DNA from: an uncultured Prevotellaceae bacterium
GTDB lineage: Bacteria; Bacteroidota; Bacteroidia; Bacteroidales; Bacteroidaceae
Assembly: GCA_947304115.1 (NCBI GenBank)
Contig: CAMZAE010000002.1
Coordinates: forward strand, 10,059 to 74,058
Length of the DNA stretch: 64,000 nt
Direction: 5' to 3'
The notes beneath the pieces are model-generated. The model was not told where the DNA came from. It was given only the letters and a program-made list of their open reading frames with translations, and did not search any database. Below, in pieces: positions 8,672-18,400 of this stretch; position 1 is the stretch's first letter, and every line of letters starts with the position of its first letter. The translations under genes and the position numbers were made by a program.

Positions 8672-10048
8672 ATGAAACGAAATTTAATTCTTTTTCTTCT
8701 TTTCCTGTTGACATTTCTGTTGGCCTCGGCACAGCAAAGGTCGTTGTATGATTTGCAGCAGGCCTTTGTCGATTTGCGCTTTGGTATGTTCATCCACTAC
8801 AACATGCCCACCTATTCCATAGAGGACTGGCCGGACCCTGATATGCCCGTCTCCGCCTTTGCTCCTACAAACCTTGATTGTCGTCAATGGGCCAAGGCTG
8901 CCAAGGCTGCAAACATGAGCTACGGCTGCCTTACCACCAAGCACCACAGTGGTTTTTGCATCTGGGACACCAAAACCACTGACTACAATTCCATGCAGTC
9001 GCCAGCCCATGTGGATGTCGTGCGCCAGTATGTCGATGCCTTCCGCGAGGAAGGGTTGAGTGTGATGCTGTATTTCAGCATTCTCGACACACACCACCGC
9101 ATTCGTCCTGGCCACATCAAGCCGAGTCACACTAAGTATATCAAATCGCAGCTTCGTGAACTTCTTACCAACTACGGTGACATCACCGCACTTATCATCG
9201 ATGGCTGGGATGCGCCCTGGTCTCGTATATCATATGATGAAATACCCTTTTCGGATATATATAATTATATCAAGAGCTTGCAGCCAAACTGCTTGGTGAT
9301 GGACCTTAATGCGGCAAAATACCCTCGAGAGGCCCTCTTCTACACCGACATAAAGAGCTACGAGCAGGGCGCAGGGCAGAAGATAAGCACCTCGGAGAAC
9401 CGTCTGCCCGCCCTTGCTTGCCTGAGCATTCAGCGCACGTGGTTCTGGAAGGAGTCAATGCCCACAGACAAGCTCAAGGATGTTCGCTGGCTTGTAGAGG
9501 AGAATATACGTCCATACAACAATGCCTATTGTAACTTTATTCTCAATGTTGCCCCGAACCGTGAAGGCAAGATGGACGATAATGCGGTGGAGGCACTGTG
9601 CCAGATAGGGCAAATGTGGAAGCACGAAGGCTCCACACAGCCCATTCCCGAATGCGATGCACCCATCACTTTGTGTAACCTCGCCAAGGGCTGCCCCACG
9701 GAGTACAGTTGGAGCTATGACTATAAAATCGGTGACTTCGCCAACGACGACAACTTCGACACCTCGTGGATCTCGCACTCAACTGTCAGCGAGCCTTGGT
9801 TGGAAGCAGGCCTTAACGGGAAGAAAAGGATTTCGCTAGTCACTATTGTAGAAAAAAGAAAAGGAAGCTTGCAGGCATATCGCATAGAATACAAGCGAGG
9901 GAAGTCCTGGCATAAGCTTTTCGAGGGGACAGCCCCGGAGTGTCGTGTCAAGCAACATCGCTTTCCTCCTGTCATGGCAGAAAGAGTACGTATTACTATT
10001 ACCCGGCATCAAGGCGAGGTCGCCCTTTCAGAAGTTGGCGTGTACTAA
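8672..10048 (+). CDS. Alpha-L-fucosidase (GH29) with a C-terminal F5/8 type C (discoidin) domain
   Basis: It carries a signal peptide and GH29 motifs FGMFIHYN and TTKHHSGFCIWDT. The C-terminal roughly 120 aa look like a carbohydrate-binding discoidin module. Confidence 0.85.
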   Translation: MKRNLILFLLFLLTFLLASAQQRSLYDLQQAFVDLRFGMFIHYNMPTYSIEDWPDPDMPVSAFAPTNLDCRQWAKAAKAANMSYGCLTTKHHSGFCIWDTKTTDYNSMQSPAHVDVVRQYVDAFREEGLSVMLYFSILDTHHRIRPGHIKPSHTKYIKSQLRELLTNYGDITALIIDGWDAPWSRISYDEIPFSDIYNYIKSLQPNCLVMDLNAAKYPREALFYTDIKSYEQGAGQKISTSENRLPALACLSIQRTWFWKESMPTDKLKDVRWLVEENIRPYNNAYCNFILNVAPNREGKMDDNAVEALCQIGQMWKHEGSTQPIPECDAPITLCNLAKGCPTEYSWSYDYKIGDFANDDNFDTSWISHSTVSEPWLEAGLNGKKRISLVTIVEKRKGSLQAYRIEYKRGKSWHKLFEGTAPECRVKQHRFPPVMAERVRITITRHQGEVALSEVGVY

Positions 10049-10161
10049 TAGTGTACAAAATAAAAGAGCCTGTTTCATTTGCCCTTCCTGTTCGGATTAT
10101 GACGGATTATGAAAGGACGGACATTTTTTTGTTGTTATGTTGGTAATCCAAAGTTTTTTTG

Positions 10162-10169
10162 TATCTTTG
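10162..10169 (+). promoter_or_regulatory. Duplicated copy of the V-ATPase operon -7 box (TATCTTTG)
   Basis: It lies inside direct repeat 9936..10254 and is identical to 13123..13130. Here it sits upstream of the ntpE' remnant and the fasciclin gene. Confidence 0.45.
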
Positions 10170-10200
10170 TGTCGTTATTTACACAAATATATATAAAGGA

Positions 10201-10291
10201 ATGGAAAAGATACAAGAACTCACCGAAAAACTCTTACGCGAGGGCGTGGAGAAAGGACAAGGCAGGCTACTTCCCCGAGGATGAGATGGCT
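10201..10291 (+). pseudogene. Chimeric remnant: the first roughly 54 nt of ntpE fused to a 37-nt piece of the DUF2764 (V-ATPase C-like) gene
   Basis: 10201..10254 is identical to 13162..13215, the ntpE start. 10255..10291 matches 14180..14216 with 4 differences, all synonymous in the DUF2764 frame. In the ntpE' frame the reading frame stops at 10284. Confidence 0.75.
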
Positions 10292-10405: not shown

Positions 10406-12559
10406 ATGAGGAAGTTTGTTCTTACACTCATCACCCTTTCCTTTATCATCTGTTCCTGTACAGAGGAGATAGACTCCTCTGCACGTTATGTGTTCTCGGA
10501 ATACACGGTTGCCAGTTATCTCGATGCACACGCAGACTATTCGCAGTATGTGGAATTGGCAAAGTTGGTGCCTGTGAGTGGAATGAGCGAATCTTCTGTC
10601 TATCAACTTTTGACGGCACGTGGCAACTTCACGTGCTTTGCCCCCACCAACAAGGCAATCAACGAATATCTGCAAGAACTGGTGGAAGTGGGGTTGATTA
10701 GCGAACCTTTATGGGACGCCTTCACTGACGAAACAAAGCTGGACTCCATAAGGAAGGTCATCGTGCTCAATAGCGTTATTGACGGCGGGAACCTTAAGTC
10801 GGAACGATATACGACGGCTCTTATCTCAACACTGACTGGAAAAGAAAATGCAGAGCTTCCTCTACCCACAATAGGTGACCATAAGCTGATTGTCAACAAG
10901 AACAAGGATACTCTTTTCTTGGACAAAGACAGTCGACTTGACCTCAGGAATTGCGACATCCCTGCCATCAATGGCATTTTGCATCAGATGCATAAGGTCA
11001 TTGCGCCGAAGGACGAGTCGTGTGCCCGCTATTTCCAAAACATTCTGGACAAGAAGCTTGAAGGCTATCTGATGTTTGCCAAAGCTATTCAGGCTTGTGG
11101 ACTGCTTGACACTTTGGGCGCTGTGCGCGACGAGGCTTACGAGTCCTTGTACCAGCAATATGGTGAAGATCTCGACATGAAGGACTATCAGTCGAAGGGC
11201 GGCGGTGACATGTCTGCCACTGCCGACGACCCGGATGCTCATGCCCCGGAACACCGCAAGTACGGTTTCACTCTTTTCTGTGAACCCGATGAGTTCTGGC
11301 AGTCAAAGGGCATTGATCCCGCTGCTTCGGATGCTATAGAGAAACTGCAAGGCTGGATTGTTGGAAACAACATGTACCTTAGCGATGCAGGTTATGTGGC
11401 AAATACAGACTATCGGTCGCCCAAGAATATGTTGCATCAGTGGCTGGTGTATCACATCCTGCCGATGAAAATTCCTGCCAACAAACTTGTATATCATTGC
11501 AACGAGAAAGGTTTCAATTCTAGTTCTCCCACGAAACTCTCTATTCCAGTCATGGAATGGTATCCTGTATTTGGCGGTGGTCGCCTAATCAAAATCTATG
11601 AGAGTGCGGAGAGCAACGGCATCTATCTTAACAGTTTCCCGGAAAGAAACAGCGGCATAAACGAAGACGGACATGAGAGCTATTGTGCTCCGGAAAAACG
11701 AGGCGTCCTTGTCGAGACCAGCAGCGACAAGGCTGTCGTTACAGACATTGTCAATGCTTGTATTTATCCCATAGACAAGCCTTTAGCCTATACCGATGAA
11801 ACACGTGAAGACTTGGGAAGGGAGCGTATCCGCTTTGACCTCTTCTCGCTCTTCCCAGAAGCTATCACCAACAACATCCGCCGTGCTGACAGCAAGCAGG
11901 GCAAGTATCAGCATGTCTTTGTTTCGCTTTACAATAAGTATCAGTATTTTGACAACATGTTCATCCTGAACGAGGAGACGCACTTTATCCATTACAACGG
12001 TTACGAGACAGCTTGGGCCAACTATTGTCAGGACGAAGACAAAGCATTCGGGCATTTTGACATTATTTTCAGATTGCCCCCTGTCCCCAAACGCAACACA
12101 TACGAGTTCCGTTACAAACTGCTTGCTACTGCTGCACGTGGCATTGTACAGGTATATTTTGGCGACAATCCTGACAGGCTGCCAGTGGCAGGTATTCCCA
12201 TTGATATGACTAAGAACGTGGAGGTGTTCTTTGGCGAAGGTGCCAAATGGGCAGATTTGGAAGACAACGACAAAGATGAGGATCAAATAATTGACATAGA
12301 CCACAAACTTCGCAATCATGGCTTGATGAAAGCGACGCTACACGAGACAGAAATGACTCCAACGAAGACGGCTCGTTCCAAGAGCAATTGCAGCCGCCAT
12401 ATCATAGTGCGCCAGACGCTCGATCCAAACAAGACCTATTATGTCCGTTTCAAGTCTGTACAGCCAGACCTATCACGTCCAGAACTTTATCTCGACTATT
12501 TCGAGTATTGCCCGAAGGAAATCTTTGACAGCCCCGAAAAGCCAGAAGATATTTGGTAA
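10406..12559 (+). CDS. Fasciclin (FAS1) domain-containing lipoprotein
   Basis: It has a lipobox (LSFIICSC). The N-terminal FAS1 signature is LLTARGNFTCFAPTNKAINEYL ... INGILHQMHKVIAP. The large C-terminal region is of unknown function. Confidence 0.7.
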   Translation: MRKFVLTLITLSFIICSCTEEIDSSARYVFSEYTVASYLDAHADYSQYVELAKLVPVSGMSESSVYQLLTARGNFTCFAPTNKAINEYLQELVEVGLISEPLWDAFTDETKLDSIRKVIVLNSVIDGGNLKSERYTTALISTLTGKENAELPLPTIGDHKLIVNKNKDTLFLDKDSRLDLRNCDIPAINGILHQMHKVIAPKDESCARYFQNILDKKLEGYLMFAKAIQACGLLDTLGAVRDEAYESLYQQYGEDLDMKDYQSKGGGDMSATADDPDAHAPEHRKYGFTLFCEPDEFWQSKGIDPAASDAIEKLQGWIVGNNMYLSDAGYVANTDYRSPKNMLHQWLVYHILPMKIPANKLVYHCNEKGFNSSSPTKLSIPVMEWYPVFGGGRLIKIYESAESNGIYLNSFPERNSGINEDGHESYCAPEKRGVLVETSSDKAVVTDIVNACIYPIDKPLAYTDETREDLGRERIRFDLFSLFPEAITNNIRRADSKQGKYQHVFVSLYNKYQYFDNMFILNEETHFIHYNGYETAWANYCQDEDKAFGHFDIIFRLPPVPKRNTYEFRYKLLATAARGIVQVYFGDNPDRLPVAGIPIDMTKNVEVFFGEGAKWADLEDNDKDEDQIIDIDHKLRNHGLMKATLHETEMTPTKTARSKSNCSRHIIVRQTLDPNKTYYVRFKSVQPDLSRPELYLDYFEYCPKEIFDSPEKPEDIW

Positions 12560-12565
12560 AGCCCT

Positions 12566-13009
12566 GTGAAAAGAATCTTCCTCCTTTTCTTCCTGCTGGC
12601 CGACTTTGCAGCGATGGCACAGCAGAGGTCTGTGTATGAACTTCAGTAGGCTTTTGTGGATTTGCGTTTTGGCATGTTTATCCATTACAATATGCCCACC
12701 TGTTCTTTTGAGGACTAGCCGAATCCCGACATGCATGCCTCGGATTTTGTCCCGACGCACCTTGATTGTCGTCAATGGGCCAAGGCTGCCAAGGCTGCAA
12801 ACATGAGCTACGGCTGCCTTACCACCAAGCACCACAGTGGTTTTTGCATCTGGGATACCAAAACCACTGACTACAATTCCATGCAGTCGCCAGCCCCGGA
12901 GTGTCGTGTCAAGCAACATCGCCTTCCTCCTGTCATAGCAGAAAGAGTACGTATTACTATTACCCGGCATCAAGGCGAGGTCGCCCTTTCAGAAGTTGGC
13001 GTGTACTAA
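12566..13009 (+). pseudogene. GH29 alpha-L-fucosidase pseudogene (internally deleted, two nonsense codons)
   Basis: It is homologous to 8672..9008 plus 9936..10048 of the intact gene. The start codon is GTG instead of ATG. There are in-frame TAG codons at 12647 and 12716. A 927-bp in-frame deletion (equivalent to 9009..9935) has CAGCCC microhomology at the junction. Confidence 0.9.
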
Positions 13010-13122
13010 TAGTGTACAAAATAAAAGAGCCTGTTTCATTTGCCCTTCCTGTTCGGATTATGACGGATTATGAAAGGACGGACATTTTTTTGTTGTTATG
13101 TTGGTAATCCAAAGTTTTTTTG

Positions 13123-13130
13123 TATCTTTG
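13123..13130 (+). promoter_or_regulatory. -7 promoter box TATCTTTG of the V-type ATPase operon
   Basis: An exact TAnnTTTG match about 32 nt upstream of the ntpE ATG at 13162. Confidence 0.5.
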
Positions 13131-13161
13131 TGTCGTTATTTACACAAATATATATAAAGGA

Positions 13162-13749
13162 ATGGAAAAGATACAAGAACTCACCGAAAAACTCTTACGC
13201 GAGGGCGTGGAGAAGGGACAGGCTGAGGCCGACCGCATCATTGAGCAGGCAAAGCAGCAGGCAGAGAAGATTTTGCAGGAAGCTCGCCAGCAGGCTCAGG
13301 AAATTGCTGCCCAGGCACAGAAGAAAGCCGCCGAGACAGATGCCAACACGCGCAACGAACTCAAGATGTACACCAGCCAGGCTCTCAGTGCTCTCAAGAG
13401 TGAAGTCACAAACGTCTTGACCGACGGTGTCGTCAAGGAAGCTGTGGCAGGTCTGACGGCAAGCCCCGACTTCCTCGGACAGTTCGCTGTTGCTATGGCC
13501 GAGAAGTGGAGTGCCAATGAACCTGTTGTTATCTCTACCAGCGAAGCTGACAGCCTCAAGGCTTATTTTGCAGCCAAGGCAAAGGCTTTGCTCGACAAAG
13601 GTGTGACCATCAACAAGATTAACGGCAAGGACACCCTGCTCACCATTGCCCCAGCCGACGGCAGTTATAAGGTGAATTTCGGCAAGGAAGAGTTCGAAAC
13701 CTACTTCAAGAACTTCCTGCGTCCGCAGCTTGTTGAAATGTTATTCTAA
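13162..13749 (+). CDS. ntpE: V-type ATP synthase subunit E
   Basis: MEKIQELTEKLLREGVEKGQAEADRIIEQAKQQAEKILQEARQQAQ.. is the charged coiled-coil N-terminus typical of V/A-ATPase subunit E. It is the first gene of the operon. The ORF-track start at 13120 lies upstream of the promoter box region. Confidence 0.85.
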   Translation: MEKIQELTEKLLREGVEKGQAEADRIIEQAKQQAEKILQEARQQAQEIAAQAQKKAAETDANTRNELKMYTSQALSALKSEVTNVLTDGVVKEAVAGLTASPDFLGQFAVAMAEKWSANEPVVISTSEADSLKAYFAAKAKALLDKGVTINKINGKDTLLTIAPADGSYKVNFGKEEFETYFKNFLRPQLVEMLF

Positions 13750-13750
13750 A

Positions 13751-13843
13751 TGCATAATTCATAATTCACAATTCATAATAAGGCTACGCCCTAAACTGAG
13801 CGAAGGAAAACAATTATGAATTATGAATTAAAAATTATGAATT
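13751..13843. repeat. Heptad-word inverted repeat ((T/A)CATAAT)n ... (ATTATGA)n, 'empty' copy
   Basis: The left arm is TGCATAATTCATAATTCACAATTCATAAT. The right arm is ATTATGAATTATGAATTAAAAATTATGAATT. The loop is about 33 nt. The element fills the ntpE/DUF2764 spacer. Confidence 0.85.
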
Positions 13844-13850
13844 GAAAAAG

Positions 13851-14690
13851 ATGGCCAATTACTATTGCATGATAGCCGGCTTGCCGGACATTGACCTGCA
13901 GGACACGAAGCCAGGAATGAGCATCGAGGACATGCGGGAGCAGTGCGAGGAACAGCTCACGCCGCTTGACAAGAAGTTGCTATTTTACTTCTTCCTCCAC
14001 TTTGACTGCGTCAACCTCGTCAGGCTCCTCAAGGATTCCGAAGCAGAGATTGACCAGTGGGGCAACTTCACGCTCGACCAGTTGCGCGACCTCATCACCA
14101 GTGCTACGGAGCTTAACTTCAACGTGCATCGCTATCCTGCCTTTATGAGCATCTTTGCCCGTGAGTATGCCTTCAACAAGGACAAGGCAGGCTATTTCCC
14201 CGAAGACGAGATGGCGTACAAGTTCCTTGACTACGCCATCCGTACCTGTCCCAATCGCATGATGCGTCGCTGGTACAAGCTCAACCTCGACATCACCAAC
14301 ATCCTCACTGCCATGCTTGCGCGTGTGCAGGGCTGGAGTGTCGGCGACTTCATCAAGGGCGAGGGCGAGGTGCAGGAAATGATACGCGAGAACAAGACGA
14401 AGGACTTCAACCTTGGACACGAGTTAGACTACATCCCTCAATTGATGAAGATTGTCGATGAGGAAGACCCCGTCCGCAAGGAGAAGATGATAGATGCCTT
14501 CAAGTGGATATGGCTCGACGAGCGCACCTTCTTCGAGCCTTTCAGCATGGAAGCCGTTTTTGCCTATCTCTGCAAGCTGCAGATGCAGGAGCGTTGGGCA
14601 AAGCTCGACGTGGAGCAAGGCAAAGAAACCTTCCAGAAGATAATCGACGACCTCCGCTCAGAGGCACAAGTGCCAGAGGAGTTCTTATAA
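13851..14690 (+). CDS. DUF2764 family protein (V-ATPase subunit C-like of Bacteroidota)
   Basis: The N-terminus MANYYCMIAGLPDIDL.. is characteristic of DUF2764. It sits between E and A in the Bacteroidota V-ATPase operon. The track start at 13842 is a TTG inside the repeat arm. Confidence 0.8.
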   Translation: MANYYCMIAGLPDIDLQDTKPGMSIEDMREQCEEQLTPLDKKLLFYFFLHFDCVNLVRLLKDSEAEIDQWGNFTLDQLRDLITSATELNFNVHRYPAFMSIFAREYAFNKDKAGYFPEDEMAYKFLDYAIRTCPNRMMRRWYKLNLDITNILTAMLARVQGWSVGDFIKGEGEVQEMIRENKTKDFNLGHELDYIPQLMKIVDEEDPVRKEKMIDAFKWIWLDERTFFEPFSMEAVFAYLCKLQMQERWAKLDVEQGKETFQKIIDDLRSEAQVPEEFL

Positions 14691-15143
14691 TAATTCACAA
14701 TTCATAATTCATAGTTATGAGGGATGCCGAGACAAATGCCATAGTGGGTAAAAGCTTTGCTTTTGCTGTGAGATGCGTGAAGCTTAGGAAGTACCTCACA
14801 ACAGAGAAGAATGAATATGTAATGTCCAAGCAACTGCTGAGATGTGGCACAAGCATCGGAGCAAATGTAAAGGAAGCTTTGCGAGGACAGTCTCGGCCAG
14901 ATTTCGGCACGAAGATGAATATCTCGCTGAAGGAGGCAAGTGAAAGTGAATACTGGATTGAATTATTGCAAGCAACGGAATATATAACCATTGAGCAGGG
15001 TGAAAGCCTGCTTACAGATTGTAGAGAGTTAATTAAGCTACTGACAAGCATTGTCAAGACAACCTTTACCAAGGAATGGGGAAGCTTTGACAGGGCGTAG
15101 CTGAATTATGAATTATGAATTAATAATTATGAATTAAATAAAA
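14691..15143. repeat. The same heptad-word inverted repeat, 'filled' copy enclosing the four-helix-bundle gene
   Basis: The left arm is 14691..14713 (TAATTCACAATTCATAATTCATA). The right arm is 15104..15143 (GAATTATGAATTATGAATTAATAATTATGAATTAAATAAAA). The arms abut the DUF2764 stop and the ntpA start. Confidence 0.8.
14717..15100 (+). CDS. Four-helix-bundle protein (23S rRNA intervening-sequence protein family; same family as DGR Avd)
   Basis: Family signature: SKQLLRCGTSIGANVKEALRGQSRPDFGTKMNISLKEASESEYWIELL. The gene is 127 aa and is nested between the two arms of the inverted repeat. Confidence 0.85.
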   Translation: MRDAETNAIVGKSFAFAVRCVKLRKYLTTEKNEYVMSKQLLRCGTSIGANVKEALRGQSRPDFGTKMNISLKEASESEYWIELLQATEYITIEQGESLLTDCRELIKLLTSIVKTTFTKEWGSFDRA

Positions 15144-16889
15144 ATGACAAAAGGAATTGTTAGTGGCGTAGTCGCCAACATGGTCACGCTCCGCGTAGAT
15201 GGACCTGTGCTCCAGGGCGAGATATGCTACATCACCACAGGAGGCGACCGACTGATGGCTGAGGTCATCAAGGTGGTTGGCCAGGACGTATATGTGCAGG
15301 TATTCGAGAGCACACGCGGCCTGAAAGTCGGTGCCGAGGCAGAGTTCACAGGCCACATGCTTGAGATTCAGCTTGGCCCGGGTATGCTCAGTCATAACTA
15401 CGATGGTTTGCAGAACGACCTCGACAAGATGGACGGCGTCTTCCTCAAGCGCGGCCAATACACCGAGGCACTCGATGCTGACCGCCTTTGGGAGTTTGAA
15501 CCTCTTGCAAAGATTGGCGACAAGGTGCAGGCAAGTGACTGGCTCGGCAAGGTGGAGGAGAACCATCAGCCCTTGAAGATTATGGCTCCCTTCCAGATGA
15601 AAGGCACGGCTACGGTCAAGAGCATCGTGGCGAAGGGACAGTACAAGATACACGACACCATCGCCGTCCTGACTGACGAGCAGGGCAATGACATCAATGT
15701 CGATATGGTGCAGCACTGGCCCGTGAAGTTCGCCATGACGAACTACCGCGAGAAGCCGCGTCCATTCAAACTGTTGGAGACAGGTGTCCGCACCATCGAC
15801 ACCTTCAACCCCATTGTGGAGGGCGGCACAGGCTTCATCCCTGGCCCCTTCGGTACGGGTAAGACCGTGTTGCAGCACGCCATATCTAAGCAGGCCGAAG
15901 CCGACATCGTGGTCATCGCTGCCTGCGGTGAACGTGCCAACGAGGTTGTGGAAATCTTCACAGAGTTCCCCGAACTGGTTGACCCGCACACAGGCCGCAA
16001 GCTGATGGAGCGTACCATCATCATCGCCAACACCTCCAACATGCCCGTTGCAGCTCGTGAGGCTTCCGTCTATACAGCCATGACGATGGCAGAATACTAT
16101 CGCTCGATGGGCTTGCGCGTCCTGCTGATGGCCGACTCCACTTCGCGTTGGGCACAGGCTCTGCGCGAGATGTCGAACCGTATGGAGGAACTGCCTGGCC
16201 CCGATGCTTTCCCAATGGACCTCGGCGCCCTCATCTCGAACTTCTACGGCCGCGCAGGTTACGTCTATCTCAACAACGGTCAGGTCGGTTCTGTTACCTT
16301 CCTTGGCACCGTATCGCCTGCAGGTGGTAACTTGAAGGAGCCTGTTACCGAGAGCACGAAGAAAGTTGCCCGTTGCTTCTATGCACTCGAGCAAGACCGC
16401 GCCGACAAGAAGCGCTACCCGGCTGTCAATCCCATCGATTCCTACTCCAAGTACCTCGAATATCCAGAGTTCGCGGATTATATCAAGGAACACATCAATG
16501 ATGAGTGGATTCCGAAGGTATTGAAGCTCAAGACACGTATGCAGCGCGGTAAGGAGATTGCCGAGCAAATCAACATCTTGGGCGACGACGGCGTGCCTGT
16601 TGATTACCACATCGTCTTCTGGAAGTCGGAGGTCATCGACTACGTCATCCTCCAGCAGGATGCCTTCGACGAGGTGGATGCCGTGACACCCCTCGCACGT
16701 CAGGAAGAGATACTCAACCTCGTCACGAAGATTTGCGACAAGGACGACTACAAGTTCGACACCTTCCTTGAGGTCATCGACTACTTCAAGAAACTCATCA
16801 ACCTCTGCAAGCAGATGAACTACTCCACCTATAAGAGTGAGCAGTACTACGATTACATTTCGCAAGTTGAAAACTTGCTTAATTCATAA
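15144..16889 (+). CDS. ntpA: V-type ATP synthase subunit A (catalytic)
   Basis: Walker A motif GPFGTGKT. It has the non-homologous insert typical of V/A-type A subunits and is 581 aa. The last codons (..LLNS*) are encoded by the repeat arm. Confidence 0.95.
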   Translation: MTKGIVSGVVANMVTLRVDGPVLQGEICYITTGGDRLMAEVIKVVGQDVYVQVFESTRGLKVGAEAEFTGHMLEIQLGPGMLSHNYDGLQNDLDKMDGVFLKRGQYTEALDADRLWEFEPLAKIGDKVQASDWLGKVEENHQPLKIMAPFQMKGTATVKSIVAKGQYKIHDTIAVLTDEQGNDINVDMVQHWPVKFAMTNYREKPRPFKLLETGVRTIDTFNPIVEGGTGFIPGPFGTGKTVLQHAISKQAEADIVVIAACGERANEVVEIFTEFPELVDPHTGRKLMERTIIIANTSNMPVAAREASVYTAMTMAEYYRSMGLRVLLMADSTSRWAQALREMSNRMEELPGPDAFPMDLGALISNFYGRAGYVYLNNGQVGSVTFLGTVSPAGGNLKEPVTESTKKVARCFYALEQDRADKKRYPAVNPIDSYSKYLEYPEFADYIKEHINDEWIPKVLKLKTRMQRGKEIAEQINILGDDGVPVDYHIVFWKSEVIDYVILQQDAFDEVDAVTPLARQEEILNLVTKICDKDDYKFDTFLEVIDYFKKLINLCKQMNYSTYKSEQYYDYISQVENLLNS

Positions 16890-16986
16890 TTCATAATTCA
16901 CAATGCACAATTGGCAGGATGAATATGAATTACCCTATGAGATAATAATTACGAATTATGAATTAAAAATTATGAATTAAATAAGT
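16881..16986. repeat. Heptad-word inverted repeat, second 'empty' copy
   Basis: The left arm is AATTCATAATTCATAATTCACAATGCACAATT. The right arm is AATTACGAATTATGAATTAAAAATTATGAATTAAATAAG. The loop is about 37 nt. The element spans the ntpA stop to 1 nt before the ntpB ATG. Confidence 0.85.
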
Positions 16987-16987
16987 T

Positions 16988-18310
16988 ATGGCAACAGCAT
17001 TTCAGAAAGTATATACAAAGATAAGCCAGATAACAAAGGCCACTTGTTCGCTCAAGGCGAAGGGCGTGGGCTATAATGAGTTGGCAACCATCAATGGCAA
17101 GCTGGCACAGGTGGTGAAGATTATCGGCGACGACGTGACGCTTCAGGTCTTCGAAGGCACTGGCGGCATTCCCACCAATGCCGAGGTTGTGTTCCTCGGC
17201 AAGAGTCCTTCGCTCAAGGTCAGCGAACAGTTGGCAGGACGCTTCTTCAACGCTTACGGTCAGCCCATCGACGGCGGCCCAGAGGTTGAAGGCAAGGAAG
17301 TCGAGATTGGCGGCCCTTCAGTGAACCCTGTGCGCCGTAAGCAGCCCAGCGAACTCATCGCAACAGGTATTGCAGGCATCGACCTCAACAACACGCTCGT
17401 CTCTGGTCAGAAGATTCCTTTCTTCGCCGACCCCGACCAGCCCTTTAACGAAGTGATGGCGCTCGTAGCCATGCGTGCCAAGGCAGACAAGATTATCCTG
17501 GGCGGCATGGGTATGACCAACGATGACTATTACTTCTTCCGCAACACCTTTGCTAACGCCGGCGCGCTCGACCGCATCATCTCTTTCATCAATACGACGG
17601 AAGACCCTGCCGTGGAGCGACTCCTCATTCCCGACATGGCGCTGACGGCAGCCGAGTATTTCGCCGTTGAGAAGCATGAGACGGTGCTCGTCCTCTTGAC
17701 CGATATGACCTCATACGCCGACTCGCTCTCCATCGTGAGCAACCGTATGGACCAGATTCCGTCGAAGGACTCCATGCCCGGCTCGCTCTATTCCGACTTG
17801 GCGAAGATTTACGAGAAGGCCGTGCAGTTCCCCGAGAGCGCAGGCGGCGGCTCCATCACCATCATCGCTGTGACAACCCTTTCTGGCGGCGACATCACGC
17901 ATGCCGTTCCCGACAACACAGGTTATATCACGGAGGGCCAGCTCTACTTGCGTCGCGATAGTGATGTGGGTAAGGTCATCATCGACCCGTTCCGTTCGCT
18001 CAGCCGTCTGAAGCAGCTCGTCGCAGGTAAGAAGACGCGCAAGGACCACAGCCAGGTGATGAACGCAGCCATCCGACTCTATGCCGATGCTGCCAATGCC
18101 AAGACAAAGCTGGAGAACGGCTTCGACCTCACCGACTACGACAACCGTTGCCTCGACTTTGCGAAGGACTATTCCAGCAAGCTCCTTGCCATCGACGTCA
18201 ACCTCAACACGGAGGAGATGCTTGATGTGACATGGTCGCTCTTCCGCAAGTACTTCAAGCTCGAAGAGGTGAACATCAAGAAGGAGTTCACCGACATCTA
18301 CTGGCAATAA
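16988..18310 (+). CDS. ntpB: V-type ATP synthase subunit B
   Basis: A 440-aa protein with an alpha/beta ATPase fold and a degenerate P-loop, typical of a V/A-type B subunit. It follows ntpA. Confidence 0.95.
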   Translation: MATAFQKVYTKISQITKATCSLKAKGVGYNELATINGKLAQVVKIIGDDVTLQVFEGTGGIPTNAEVVFLGKSPSLKVSEQLAGRFFNAYGQPIDGGPEVEGKEVEIGGPSVNPVRRKQPSELIATGIAGIDLNNTLVSGQKIPFFADPDQPFNEVMALVAMRAKADKIILGGMGMTNDDYYFFRNTFANAGALDRIISFINTTEDPAVERLLIPDMALTAAEYFAVEKHETVLVLLTDMTSYADSLSIVSNRMDQIPSKDSMPGSLYSDLAKIYEKAVQFPESAGGGSITIIAVTTLSGGDITHAVPDNTGYITEGQLYLRRDSDVGKVIIDPFRSLSRLKQLVAGKKTRKDHSQVMNAAIRLYADAANAKTKLENGFDLTDYDNRCLDFAKDYSSKLLAIDVNLNTEEMLDVTWSLFRKYFKLEEVNIKKEFTDIYWQ

Positions 18311-18341
18311 ACCACGGATTAAACAGATTTAACGGATTTAA

Positions 18342-18378
18342 CGGATTGAGGCAGCGAAAAGCACTCAATCCGTTTTTC
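18342..18378 (+). terminator. Rho-independent terminator after ntpB
   Basis: The stem CGGATTGAG / CTCAATCCG has a 13-nt loop and is followed by TTTTT. Confidence 0.6.
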
Positions 18379-18400
18379 ATTTTATTGAACACCTTTAATG

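What the first reader, a model, noticed from the sequence alone, without database searches (positions are those of the whole stretch)
13751..16986. Three consecutive V-ATPase operon spacers carry the same heptad-word hairpin; one holds a complete IVS/Avd-family four-helix-bundle gene
Seen: the spacers E|DUF2764 (13751..13843), DUF2764|A (14691..15143) and A|B (16881..16986) are all built from one inverted repeat. The left arms are about 4 tandem heptads (TCATAAT / TCACAAT). The right arms are the complementary heptads (ATTATGA / ATTAAAA). The right arms end 1-8 nt before the next start codon.

Two copies have loops of about 33-37 nt. In the middle copy the 'loop' is a 127-codon gene of the 23S rRNA intervening-sequence protein family. 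The left arm of the third copy supplies the last codons and the stop of ntpA (..LLNS*).

Established: this protein family was named for genes found inside stem-loop intervening sequences that RNase III excises from 23S rRNA. The DGR accessory protein Avd belongs to the same fold family.

Inference: the same gene-in-a-hairpin architecture occurs here inside an mRNA operon, with filled and empty sites side by side. This suggests either a mobile or excisable hairpin cassette, or programmed RNase III processing of the polycistron.
Basis: partly seen in the sequence, partly recalled or inferred. Interest (0 to 1): 0.65.

Follow-up and report, generated by a model that had tools for sequence, protein, structure and literature searches.

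The report
Four-helix-bundle gene cassette with heptad-repeat arms
Three gaps between genes of a rumen Prevotella-type V-ATPase operon hold one complete copy and two gene-less copies of an apparently mobile hairpin cassette, whose arms are five-fold 7-base repeats and whose only gene is a small four-helix-bundle protein; the same design surrounds relatives of this gene in many bacterial phyla.

Summary
All three spacers carry inverted arrays of tandem heptads. There are 11 arm matches in 64 kb against 0.12 expected, all in this operon. The middle spacer encloses an intact PF05635/TIGR02436 gene.

- In about 65 orthologous operons, each junction is found bare, holding a gene-less (solo) hairpin, or holding the gene cassette.
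- The copy closest to the window's gene at C|A includes one at A|B in another strain.
- In 78 relatives from at least 7 phyla, 72 are flanked by inverted period-7 arrays.
- Where the flanking genes run the same way, the gene lies in sense in 47 of 49 loci.
- The heptad word tracks the protein clade across phyla.
- The protein is under strong purifying selection (dN/dS about 0.05).

The RNase III half is untested, and two sequence tests for pairing selection were negative: there is no G·U excess and no mirrored compensation. Instead the arms have a sharply fixed size, 31-33 nt with five AAT[T/G] cores 7 nt apart. This matches the five chains of both homologous PDB entries and suggests that each arm is a docking site for the pentameric protein. 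That is inference.

I found no paper linking heptad arrays to this gene family. I rate it a new variant of the 23S rRNA intervening-sequence element.

The parts
13162..13749 (+). V-ATPase subunit E gene (195 aa). Its TAA stop (13747-13749) abuts the first left arm.
   Evidence: Weak matches to NCBIfam V-type ATP synthase subunit E models. The orthologues are 195 aa. The ATG at 13162 follows a TAtcTTTG motif.
13749..13779 (+). Left heptad array of solo hairpin 1, with five AAT[T/G/A] cores.
   Evidence: inverted repeat I5
13781..13792 (+). AGGCTACGCCCT. This is the reverse complement of the cassette's right-end tail (AGGGCGTAGCT) and lies directly beside the left arm.
   Evidence: I1: 13749-13792 pairs with 15092-15135, 84%. 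The same motif sits at the same place in the E|C solo hairpins of related operons.
13812..13844 (+). Right heptad array of solo hairpin 1 (five AATT cores). It ends 6 nt before the DUF2764 ATG.
13851..14690 (+). DUF2764 gene (V-ATPase subunit C/d-like), 279 aa.
   Evidence: PF10962, E = 4.8e-68. The start codon was placed by alignment to orthologues.
14692..14716 (+). Left heptad array of the full cassette. It starts 1 nt after the DUF2764 stop and runs into the start codon of the four-helix-bundle gene.
14717..15100 (+). Four-helix-bundle protein gene (PF05635 / TIGR02436), 127 aa, intact.
   Evidence: dN/dS is about 0.05 against relatives.
15092..15102 (+). Right-end tail motif AGGGCGTAGCT, overlapping the TAG stop.
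   Evidence: Conserved as GCGTAGCT(T)AATTATG in the cassettes of related operons.
15104..15138 (+). Right heptad array of the full cassette (five AATT cores). It ends 5 nt before the ntpA ATG.
15144..16889 (+). V-ATPase catalytic subunit A gene. Its last three codons and stop (AAT TCA TAA) are the first units of the third left arm.
16881..16912 (+). Left heptad array of solo hairpin 3 (five cores).
   Evidence: inverted repeat I2
16913..16946 (+). Loop of solo hairpin 3. It contains a degenerate extra copy of a right end (ATGAATATGAATTA, 16919-16932).
   Evidence: D3. The orthologous solo in L133 aligns to its own cassette's right end with score 32 against a shuffle maximum of 25.
16947..16981 (+). 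Right heptad array of solo hairpin 3 (five cores). The complementarity to the left side extends to 16987, directly before the ntpB ATG.
16988..18310 (+). V-ATPase subunit B gene.

Best explanation
The three spacers hold members of one family of hairpin cassettes. The full form is about 450 bp. It consists of a promoter-less PF05635 four-helix-bundle gene bracketed by two inverted arrays. Each array has five AAT[T/G] cores spaced 7 nt apart (about 32 nt). A short tail motif (GCGTAGCT) sits before the right array.

The element behaves as a mobile, selfish-type cassette.
- It lands exactly in the stop-start junction between co-directional genes, with its gene in sense, so the host operon's transcript expresses it.
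- Its left array can supply the upstream gene's last codons and stop.
- Its right array leaves a short A-rich leader before the next start codon.
- It has no T-run, so transcription reads through.

The two 'empty' hairpins in the window are gene-less derivatives of the same element, comparable to MITEs.

**Shown:** the architecture; its generality across phyla; presence/absence at orthologous junctions; relocation between junctions; co-inheritance of gene and arm word; purifying selection on the protein.

**Inferred:**
- The pentameric protein docks on the five-core arrays, one core per protomer, and this interaction, rather than base pairing alone, is what keeps the arms.
- In the transcript the arms also form a roughly 30-bp imperfect stem. 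That stem could be cut by RNase III, as in the rRNA intervening sequences that carry the homologous gene, or could couple translation of neighbouring cistrons.

The enzyme that moves the DNA is unknown.
For: **Presence/absence at the same junctions.** About 65 orthologous operons were compared, and the tally counts each distinct junction sequence once.
- E|C: 19 bare, 12 solo AATKCAY hairpins, 15 other inserts.
- C|A: 17 bare, 9 gene cassettes, 1 solo.
- A|B: 10 bare, 7 gene cassettes, 4-6 solos.
- A fourth junction, B|D, holds a 45%-identical gene with AATGTAN arms in L140.

**Relocation.** The window's C|A gene is 89% identical in DNA to the A|B gene of L100 and 90% to the C|A gene of L008. 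The two copies inside L001 are only 78% identical. The L001 and L012 cassettes are 99% identical while their ntpA genes are 90% identical.

**Generality.**
- 72 of 78 relatives have a flanking inverted repeat above all 20 shuffles, and 60 are strongly above. They come from Bacteroidales, Clostridia, Selenomonadaceae, Thermoguttaceae, Melainabacteria, Chthonomonadales, Blastocatellia and Leptospirales.
- Period 7 is the best period in 79 of 91 cassettes.
- 141 of 219 period-7 arrays in 545 kb lie within 140 nt of the ORF ends.
- A Xanthomonas homologue of PDB 2GSC sits accB|gene|accC, flanked by GGGAATC arrays.

**Orientation.** The gene is in sense in 47 of 49 loci with co-directional neighbours (p = 4e-12). 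The hosts are unrelated operons: a gyrB/gyrA-type pair, asd|dapA, hsdS|hsdR, argS|rnh.

**Unit of transfer.** The word class tracks the protein clade across phyla (0 of 500 within-taxon permutations reached the observed value).

**Protein constraint.** Median dN/dS is 0.045 over 27 pairs.

**Fixed arm size.** 100 of 186 arms span 31-33 nt, and 55 of 93 arms on each side have exactly five units. PDB entries 2RLD and 2GSC each have five chains.

**Copy number and turnover.**
- The arms are multicopy in a sample holding nearly this sequence. Arm bins show 7-25 times the depth of unique flanks, and contigs break at the arms.
- L001 and L003 differ by exactly two heptads.
- Nested double hairpins occur at E|C in L092, L094, L100 and L101.
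Against: - No recombinase, transposase or reverse transcriptase is part of the element, and no new insertion has been seen directly. Mobility is inferred from comparative data.
- Divergence between copies is large (dS 0.5-2.4), so movement is rare on the strain time-scale.
- Target-site duplications are unclear: TAA...TAA at C|A and A|B, and possibly ATG at E|C.
- Except for the short tail motif, the solo loops do not align to cassette interiors better than shuffles. Descent of solos from full cassettes therefore rests on the arms, the tail motif and position.
- The pentamer-to-five-core match is numerical only. The Xanthomonas arrays have about four units (PMC4692102).
- The same junctions also hold unrelated hairpin families in other strains. 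This could mean the host selects for a hairpin at these sites rather than the element preferring them.
Confidence: 0.7

Rival explanations
1. Host regulatory hairpins. The stems are kept by the host to process the polycistronic mRNA (RNase III), to stabilise segments, or to couple translation. This would set subunit ratios for E, C, A and B. On this view the enclosed gene is incidental.
For: - The hairpins sit exactly between stop and start codons and fold stably.
- In other strains the same junctions carry at least six unrelated tandem-word or GC-rich hairpins, which looks like convergence on 'a hairpin here'.
- rRNA intervening sequences with the homologous gene are cut by RNase III (PMC4990558).
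Against: - Many related operons have bare junctions of 0-22 nt, so the hairpins are dispensable.
- There is no G·U excess (89 against 105) and no mirrored compensation.
- The same cassette sits in unrelated operons in many phyla.
- The enclosed gene is strongly conserved.
Confidence: 0.15
2. MITE with a passenger. The inverted heptad arrays are ends recognised by an unidentified transposase or nuclease encoded elsewhere. The four-helix-bundle gene is cargo with a function of its own, for example nucleic-acid binding or defence, and does not touch the arms.
For: - Gene-less solos are common, sometimes with a different word from the local gene-bearing copy (L064, L016, L015).
- 70 inverted GGGAATC pairs are reported in one Xanthomonas genome (PMC4692102).
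- The protein family has no known catalytic activity.
Against: - The arm word co-varies with the protein clade across phyla.
- Arm size is fixed at five cores, matching the five chains in the homologous crystal entries.
- The gene is the only constant cargo, and it is always in sense and intact.
Confidence: 0.3
3. Heptamer simple-sequence repeats that arise in place by polymerase slippage, next to a gene that merely happens to lie there.
For: - Heptamer repeats are the most over-represented long simple repeats in many bacteria, and slippage has been proposed as the cause (cited in PMC4692102 and PMC4679880).
- The unit number does vary between near-identical strains.
Against: - The arrays come as inverted pairs around the gene.
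- They are about 40-fold enriched at its ends.
- Their length is narrowly fixed.
- The words are inherited together with the protein clade.
Confidence: 0.03
4. RNA-mediated mobility. The cassette is excised from the operon transcript at the stem and is re-inserted through a reverse transcriptase. The Avd-like protein acts as the reverse-transcriptase cofactor, as in diversity-generating retroelements.
For: - The protein is homologous to Avd (PMC10053308).
- The strict sense orientation and dependence on host transcription fit an RNA intermediate.
Against: - No reverse transcriptase lies beside any cassette examined.
- E|C solos carry the tail motif in inverted orientation, so antisense insertion or fold-back does occur.
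Confidence: 0.05

Closest known systems
23S rRNA intervening sequences with the S23p/PF05635 ORF (Leptospira, Coxiella; PMC4990558 and Ralph & McClelland 1993 as cited there)
   Same: - It has the same gene family inside a stem formed by terminal inverted repeats.
- Its distribution among strains is sporadic.
- Horizontal transfer has been inferred.
- An old proposal holds that the ORF serves the element's mobility.
   Different: - Here the element lies between protein-coding genes of mRNA operons, not in rRNA helices 9, 25 or 45.
- The arms are five-core heptad arrays.
- Filled, solo and bare states occur side by side.
- The protein is under strong purifying selection, whereas the Coxiella paper suggests that S23p is not made in vivo.
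Co-transcribed MITE hairpins such as Neisseria Correia/NEMIS and enterobacterial ERIC elements (my own knowledge of De Gregorio et al.; reviewed in PMC3184786)
   Same: - These are small inverted-repeat elements inserted in intergenic or intercistronic DNA.
- They are transcribed with neighbouring genes and fold into hairpins that RNases can cut.
- They show presence/absence between strains.
   Different: - Those elements have unique-sequence terminal repeats and no gene.
- Here the arms are tandem heptads, and a gene-bearing 'master' form exists whose gene is not a recognisable transposase.
Intergenic heptamer repeat arrays: GGGAATC in Xanthomonas and GGGGA(C/T)T in Nostoc (PMC4692102); TAACTGA in Beggiatoaceae, Cyanobacteria and Bacteroidetes (PMC4679880)
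   Same: - These are period-7 tandem arrays of a few units in intergenic DNA between co-directional genes, often just upstream of start codons.
- 70 inverted pairs were reported in X. campestris.
- I found that the Xanthomonas PF05635 gene is flanked by exactly these GGGAATC arrays.
   Different: Those papers interpret the arrays as G-quadruplex or translational signals. Term searches of the GGGAATC paper and the TAACTGA paper found no mention of a four-helix-bundle gene or the 23S element.
Avd, the accessory protein of diversity-generating retroelements
   Same: It is a homologous four-helix-bundle protein (PMC10053308). It is pentameric (my knowledge of the bAvd structure).
   Different: No reverse transcriptase and no template/variable repeat pair lie next to these genes. 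The context here is a hairpin cassette inside housekeeping operons.
REPIN/RAYT systems (PMC3337134)
   Same: It is a short hairpin-forming repeat family in intergenic DNA whose spread depends on a single-copy protein gene flanked by the same repeats.
   Different: RAYT is a Y1 transposase with known chemistry. PF05635 has no known catalytic activity, and the repeats here are tandem heptad arrays.

Membership tests
PF05635 / TIGR02436 four-helix-bundle (23S rRNA IVS protein) family | The profile HMM match is above the curated cut-off. | tested here: met
   Pfam 91.8 bits against a cut-off of 33.8. TIGR02436 100 bits against 24.
PF05635 / TIGR02436 four-helix-bundle (23S rRNA IVS protein) family | The protein has a four-helix-bundle fold and an oligomeric (five-chain) assembly. 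| tested here: inconclusive
   Sequence match to PDB 2RLD at E = 1.9e-37 over residues 3-116. That entry has five chains. No model was built and no oligomeric state was measured for this protein.
23S rRNA intervening sequence (IVS) element | The element is inserted in a 23S (or 16S) rRNA helix. | tested here: not met
   It lies between protein-coding genes. Rfam finds no rRNA there.
23S rRNA intervening sequence (IVS) element | Terminal inverted repeats form a stem that encloses the ORF. | tested here: met
   Arms 14690-14716 and 15104-15130 are 85% complementary. 72 of 78 relatives show the same.
23S rRNA intervening sequence (IVS) element | RNase III excises it from the transcript. | not testable with these tools
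   Only short mixed-strain metatranscriptome contigs were available. Indirect tests for pairing selection were negative.
23S rRNA intervening sequence (IVS) element | Presence among strains is sporadic. | tested here: met
MITE (non-autonomous inverted-repeat element), for the two solo hairpins | Short, non-coding, with terminal inverted repeats shared with a longer gene-bearing element. | tested here: met
   The solos are about 100 nt, with the same arms and tail motif as the cassette.
MITE (non-autonomous inverted-repeat element), for the two solo hairpins | There is a target-site duplication of fixed length. | tested here: inconclusive
   TAA...TAA at C|A and A|B, and possibly ATG at E|C, from bare against filled junctions. 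The outer borders are blurred by the repeats.
MITE (non-autonomous inverted-repeat element), for the two solo hairpins | Many dispersed copies occur in one genome. | tested here: inconclusive
   There are only three sites in the 64-kb window. Arm word depth is 7-25 times that of the flanks in run X1, and solos are frequent in other genomes' loci. No complete genome was available.
MITE (non-autonomous inverted-repeat element), for the two solo hairpins | A cognate transposase has been identified. | not testable with these tools
   None is encoded in or beside the element. A genome-wide search was not possible.
DGR accessory protein Avd | The gene is encoded next to a reverse transcriptase and a template/variable repeat pair. 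| tested here: not met
   The neighbours are V-ATPase genes. The neighbours in other loci are housekeeping genes.
Intrinsic terminator | A GC-rich stem is followed by a T-run. | tested here: not met
   The stems are AT-rich and followed by A-rich sequence. The scan finds no terminator in the spacers.
Intergenic heptamer repeat arrays (Xanthomonas GGGAATC type) | Tandem period-7 units lie in intergenic DNA, often as inverted pairs. | tested here: met
   There is also a direct link through L150.

The most novel reading that the evidence does not exclude
PF05635 four-helix-bundle pentamers are the sequence-matched partners of five-core heptad arrays. Together they form a widespread class of mobile hairpin cassettes that carry no recognisable transposase and that colonise stop-start junctions of operons in many phyla. 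Three things would then be faces of one element family: the gene-less hairpins; the long-noted excess of intergenic heptamer repeats (the Xanthomonas GGGAATC arrays, and possibly the cyanobacterial heptamers, which I did not examine); and the classical 23S rRNA intervening sequences.
Probability: 0.3. Interest if true: 0.9.

Novelty: new variant of a known kind. Interest (0 to 1): 0.72.

Why it matters
The family named '23S rRNA intervening sequence protein' is one of the commonest proteins of unknown function in Bacteroidota, Cyanobacteria and other phyla. It is the closest relative of the retroelement protein Avd. The origin and mobility of the rRNA intervening sequences have been open questions since the early 1990s.

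This locus gives a natural filled/solo/bare series at defined junctions. It also gives a simple, general rule: a gene in sense, bracketed by two inverted five-core heptad arrays. Finally, it gives a concrete binding hypothesis, one pentamer per array, that can be tested with purified protein and oligonucleotides.

The result ties published but unexplained heptamer-repeat arrays in Xanthomonas to a gene. It also warns annotators that PF05635 genes found inside cas, restriction-modification or other operons may be insertions rather than functional partners.

Tried and rejected
- **Exact-sequence look-up of the window's own protein:** not on record.
- **RNA evidence:** four rumen metatranscriptome runs are held only as short contigs from mixed strains. 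They show that the operon is expressed, but nothing about cleavage. A 14720-to-15104 joint with 29 nt on one side is as likely an assembly jump through the palindromic arms as a real form.
- **DNA runs:** the single raw-read run laid one read.
- **Rfam:** there were only two sub-threshold chance hits.
- **PADLOC and PHROGs:** no match for the protein.
- **FopS small RNAs of Bacteroides:** unrelated.
- **'Arms give stop codons in all three frames' idea:** this is true for AATTCAT and AATGCGT but not for AATGCAC or AATTCGG, so it is not general (reasoned from the words).
- **Solo loops as decayed gene remnants:** local alignments were not better than shuffles, except for the tail motif and one right-end copy.
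- **Selection for RNA pairing:** there is no G·U excess and no mirrored compensation.
- **Sigma-70 promoter and terminator scan:** uninformative for this phylum.
- **Phage vehicles:** only 5 relatives were found in 2.9 million viral contigs. One has clear inverted AATTGAC/AATGGAC arms (L153) and one has direct repeats (L154).

Full report
**1. What is in the window**

The region is a V-ATPase operon. It contains subunit E (13162-13749), DUF2764 (13851-14690, PF10962), subunit A (15144-16889) and subunit B (16988-18310).

All three spacers contain inverted arrays of tandem heptads. The probe AATTCATAATTCA with up to one mismatch hits 11 times in 64 kb against 0.12 expected, and every hit lies in these spacers. 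The repeat finder pairs the arms within and between spacers at 80-100% complementarity.

The two short copies fold at about -26 kcal/mol (z = -4.1 and -3.3). The middle copy encloses an intact 127-codon gene. That gene is PF05635 (E = 4e-26), TIGR02436 'four helix bundle protein' (E = 8e-29) and matches PDB 2RLD at E = 1.9e-37. The stop codon of ntpA lies inside the third left arm.

**2. Orthologous operons show presence/absence**

Close relatives of the protein come from rumen and gut Prevotellaceae and Bacteroidaceae metagenomes. Their contigs, plus 56 operons recovered with the DUF2764 protein, gave about 65 orthologous operons. Printing every spacer and tallying distinct sequences gave:

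| Junction | Bare | Solo AATKCAY hairpin | Gene cassette | Other inserts |
|---|---|---|---|---|
| E\|C | 19 (down to overlapping stop/start) | 12 | 0 | 15 |
| C\|A | 17 (12-22 nt) | 1 | 9 | 15 |
| A\|B | 10 (2-19 nt) | 4-6 | 7 | 18 |

- Some strains have two cassettes (L001). Some have the cassette at A|B and a solo at C|A (L005).
- Some E|C spacers are nested double hairpins of 177-191 nt (L092, L094, L100, L101).
- L140 has a 45%-identical gene with AATGTAN arms at a fourth junction, B|D.
- L001 and L003 differ by exactly two heptads in one arm.
- L138 has a collapsed 33-nt palindrome at A|B.

**3. Copies have moved**

In a DNA tree, the window's C|A gene groups with the A|B gene of L100 (89%) and the C|A gene of L008 (90%). 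The two copies within L001 are only 78% identical. The cassettes of L001 and L012 are 99% identical although their ntpA genes are 90% identical. Position in the operon therefore does not define lineage.

**4. The architecture is general**

A scan of one genome per species returned 80 loci with 55-87% identical proteins. They come from Bacteroidales, Clostridia, Selenomonadaceae, Thermoguttaceae, Melainabacteria, Chthonomonadales, Blastocatellia and Leptospirales.

- In 72 of 78 usable loci, the best inverted repeat between the 130 nt upstream and downstream of the ORF exceeds all 20 shuffles. In 60 it does so strongly.
- Period 7 is the best period upstream in 79 of 91 cassettes. Self-match at period 7 is 0.47-0.50, against 0.22 inside the gene.
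- The words differ but share an A[A/G]T[T/G] core: AATTCAT, AATGCAC, AATGCGT, AATTCGG, AATGGAA, AATTGAC, AGTTCAT, AGTTGAA.
- Of 219 period-7 arrays in 545 kb, 141 lie within 140 nt of the ORF ends. Many of the rest are solo inverted pairs.
- The word class follows the protein clade across phyla. No within-taxon permutation out of 500 reached the observed association.
- A homologue of PDB 2GSC in Xanthomonas lies accB|gene|accC, flanked by GGGAATC GGGAGTG GAGAATC GGGAATC and the complementary array, which ends at the accC start codon.

**5. Orientation and hosts**

Where both neighbours could be called and are co-directional, the gene is in sense in 47 of 49 loci (p = 4e-12). The gaps are mostly 20-120 nt.

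Host pairs include gyrB/gyrA-type topoisomerase subunits, asd|dapA, hsdS|hsdR, argS|rnh and glyQ|permease. One cassette lies directly upstream of dnaE. The element carries no T-run terminator. Expression by read-through is therefore the simplest reading. This is inference.

**6. The protein matters**

Median dN/dS among operon copies is 0.045 (27 pairs).

**7. What keeps the arms**

If the stem were kept by pairing in the sense RNA, G·U-type mismatches should exceed A·C-type. They do not: 89 against 105, and 20 loci against 36. Variant heptads are also not mirrored between the arms (33 loci above and 30 below the shuffle mean, p = 0.49). The commonest mismatches come from the G/T alternation at position 4 of the word, which cannot pair either way.

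What is conserved instead is size. Of 186 arms, 100 span 31-33 nt. On each side, 55 of 93 arms have exactly five units. That corresponds to five AAT[T/G] cores at 7-nt spacing. Five of the six arms in the window fit this; the cassette's left arm has three AATT cores plus one AGTT. Both homologous PDB entries contain five chains, and Avd is a pentamer (my own knowledge).

I therefore infer that each arm is a docking platform for one pentamer. A cyclic pentamer would most naturally bind five direct repeats on a single strand wrapped around it. That would compete with stem formation. None of this is shown, and the Xanthomonas arrays have about four units.

**8. The two 'empty' hairpins**

The E|C solo carries AGGCTACGCCCT directly after its left arm. 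This is the reverse complement of the tail (AGGGCGTAGCT) that precedes the right arm of the cassette (I1). The E|C solos of related operons carry the same motif at the same place.

The A|B solo contains a degenerate extra right end in direct orientation. The orthologous case in L133 scores 32 against a shuffle maximum of 25. Otherwise the loops do not align to cassette interiors better than chance.

I read the solos as gene-less derivatives, formed by fold-back or deletion. No E|C junction holds a gene.

**9. RNase III**

The literature shows that the homologous ORF-bearing intervening sequence of Coxiella forms a 28-bp terminal stem that RNase III cuts (PMC4990558). The stems here are long enough to be substrates.

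I could not test cleavage. The RNA runs that hold this operon are stored as short contigs from mixed strains.

DNA contigs of run X1 break at the arms and show 7-25 times the word depth there. This indicates many arm copies in that sample.

**10. Comparison and novelty**

The closest known thing is the 23S rRNA intervening sequence. It shares the gene family, the terminal inverted repeats and the sporadic distribution, and its mobility has long been suspected.

The defining feature 'inside rRNA' is not met. The heptad-array arms, the five-core size, the sense-only insertion at operon junctions and the filled/solo/bare series were not found in the papers I could search.

Published heptamer-array papers describe the arrays. 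In term searches of their text I found no mention of this gene (PMC4692102; PMC4679880).

I rate it a new variant of a known kind. The literature search is limited to open-access text, so prior description elsewhere cannot be excluded.

**11. Unexplained**

- Why does this one operon collect hairpin inserts of at least six unrelated word families, while the other 60 kb of the window have none?
- Why do bare A|B junctions end ntpA with AATGCATAA or AATTCATAA, which is one heptad word? This could be target preference, microhomology or a footprint.
- What enzyme moves the DNA?

Noticed in passing
window 9930-10229 and 12891-13190: A 300-nt direct repeat, 99% identical and 2961 nt apart, brackets a 717-aa fasciclin-domain ORF (10406-12559). 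It copies the 3' end of the alpha-L-fucosidase gene together with the promoter region and first codons of V-ATPase E. In L005 and L008 the fucosidase gene is followed directly by E, so this gene looks inserted or duplicated here. An assembly artefact is also possible.
   Followed up: partly
window 18311-18385: Directly after the ntpB stop there are three to four tandem 9-mers (ACGGATTAA ACAGATTTA ACGGATTTA ACGGATTGAGG...). The last one forms the left half of a terminator-like hairpin (CTCAATCCGTTTTT). No V-ATPase D, I or K genes follow B in the window, whereas L140 has B|gene|D.
   Followed up: no
L097, L001, L147 (E|C, A|B); L119, L122, L126, L031, L123 (E|C, A|B); L114, L144 (E|C); L102 (C|A); L012, L094, L104 (A|B): The same operon junctions in other strains carry unrelated hairpins whose arms are also tandem words. 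Examples are GGTTATAAGGTT/AACCTCAAAACCTC, GTAAACAAGTAAAC/CTTGTCAACTTGTC (period 8), TTTGACAA/AATTGTGA (period 8) and CACGAATTG (period 9). There are also 140-nt GC-rich palindromes (CCCTCCCTTGTAGGGAGGG). None of them encloses a gene.
   Followed up: partly
L092-L117, C|A spacers of 44-74 nt: Many strains have a C|A spacer made of ATAACG words at a period of about 8 (for example CGAAATAACGTCATAACGATATTACGAAATAACGAAAG). In these strains the DUF2764 reading frame is extended into the spacer, and its stop codon position varies.
   Followed up: no
L001 6778-7192: In L001 and L002 a 100-aa nucleotidyltransferase (PF01909/PF18765, MNT-type) and a 46-aa ORF follow ntpB. The window has different sequence there. 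The region after B is variable between strains.
   Followed up: no
L154 2380-2500 and 2930-2990: In a predicted viral contig, a relative of the gene is flanked by the same AATTGAC/AATGGAC array plus about 20 nt in direct rather than inverted orientation. This may be a tandem arrangement of elements.
   Followed up: no
window 13124-13131: TATCTTTG, a match to the Bacteroidetes -7 promoter motif TAnnTTTG (my own knowledge), lies about 30 nt upstream of the subunit E start codon. It is a likely promoter for the operon.
   Followed up: no
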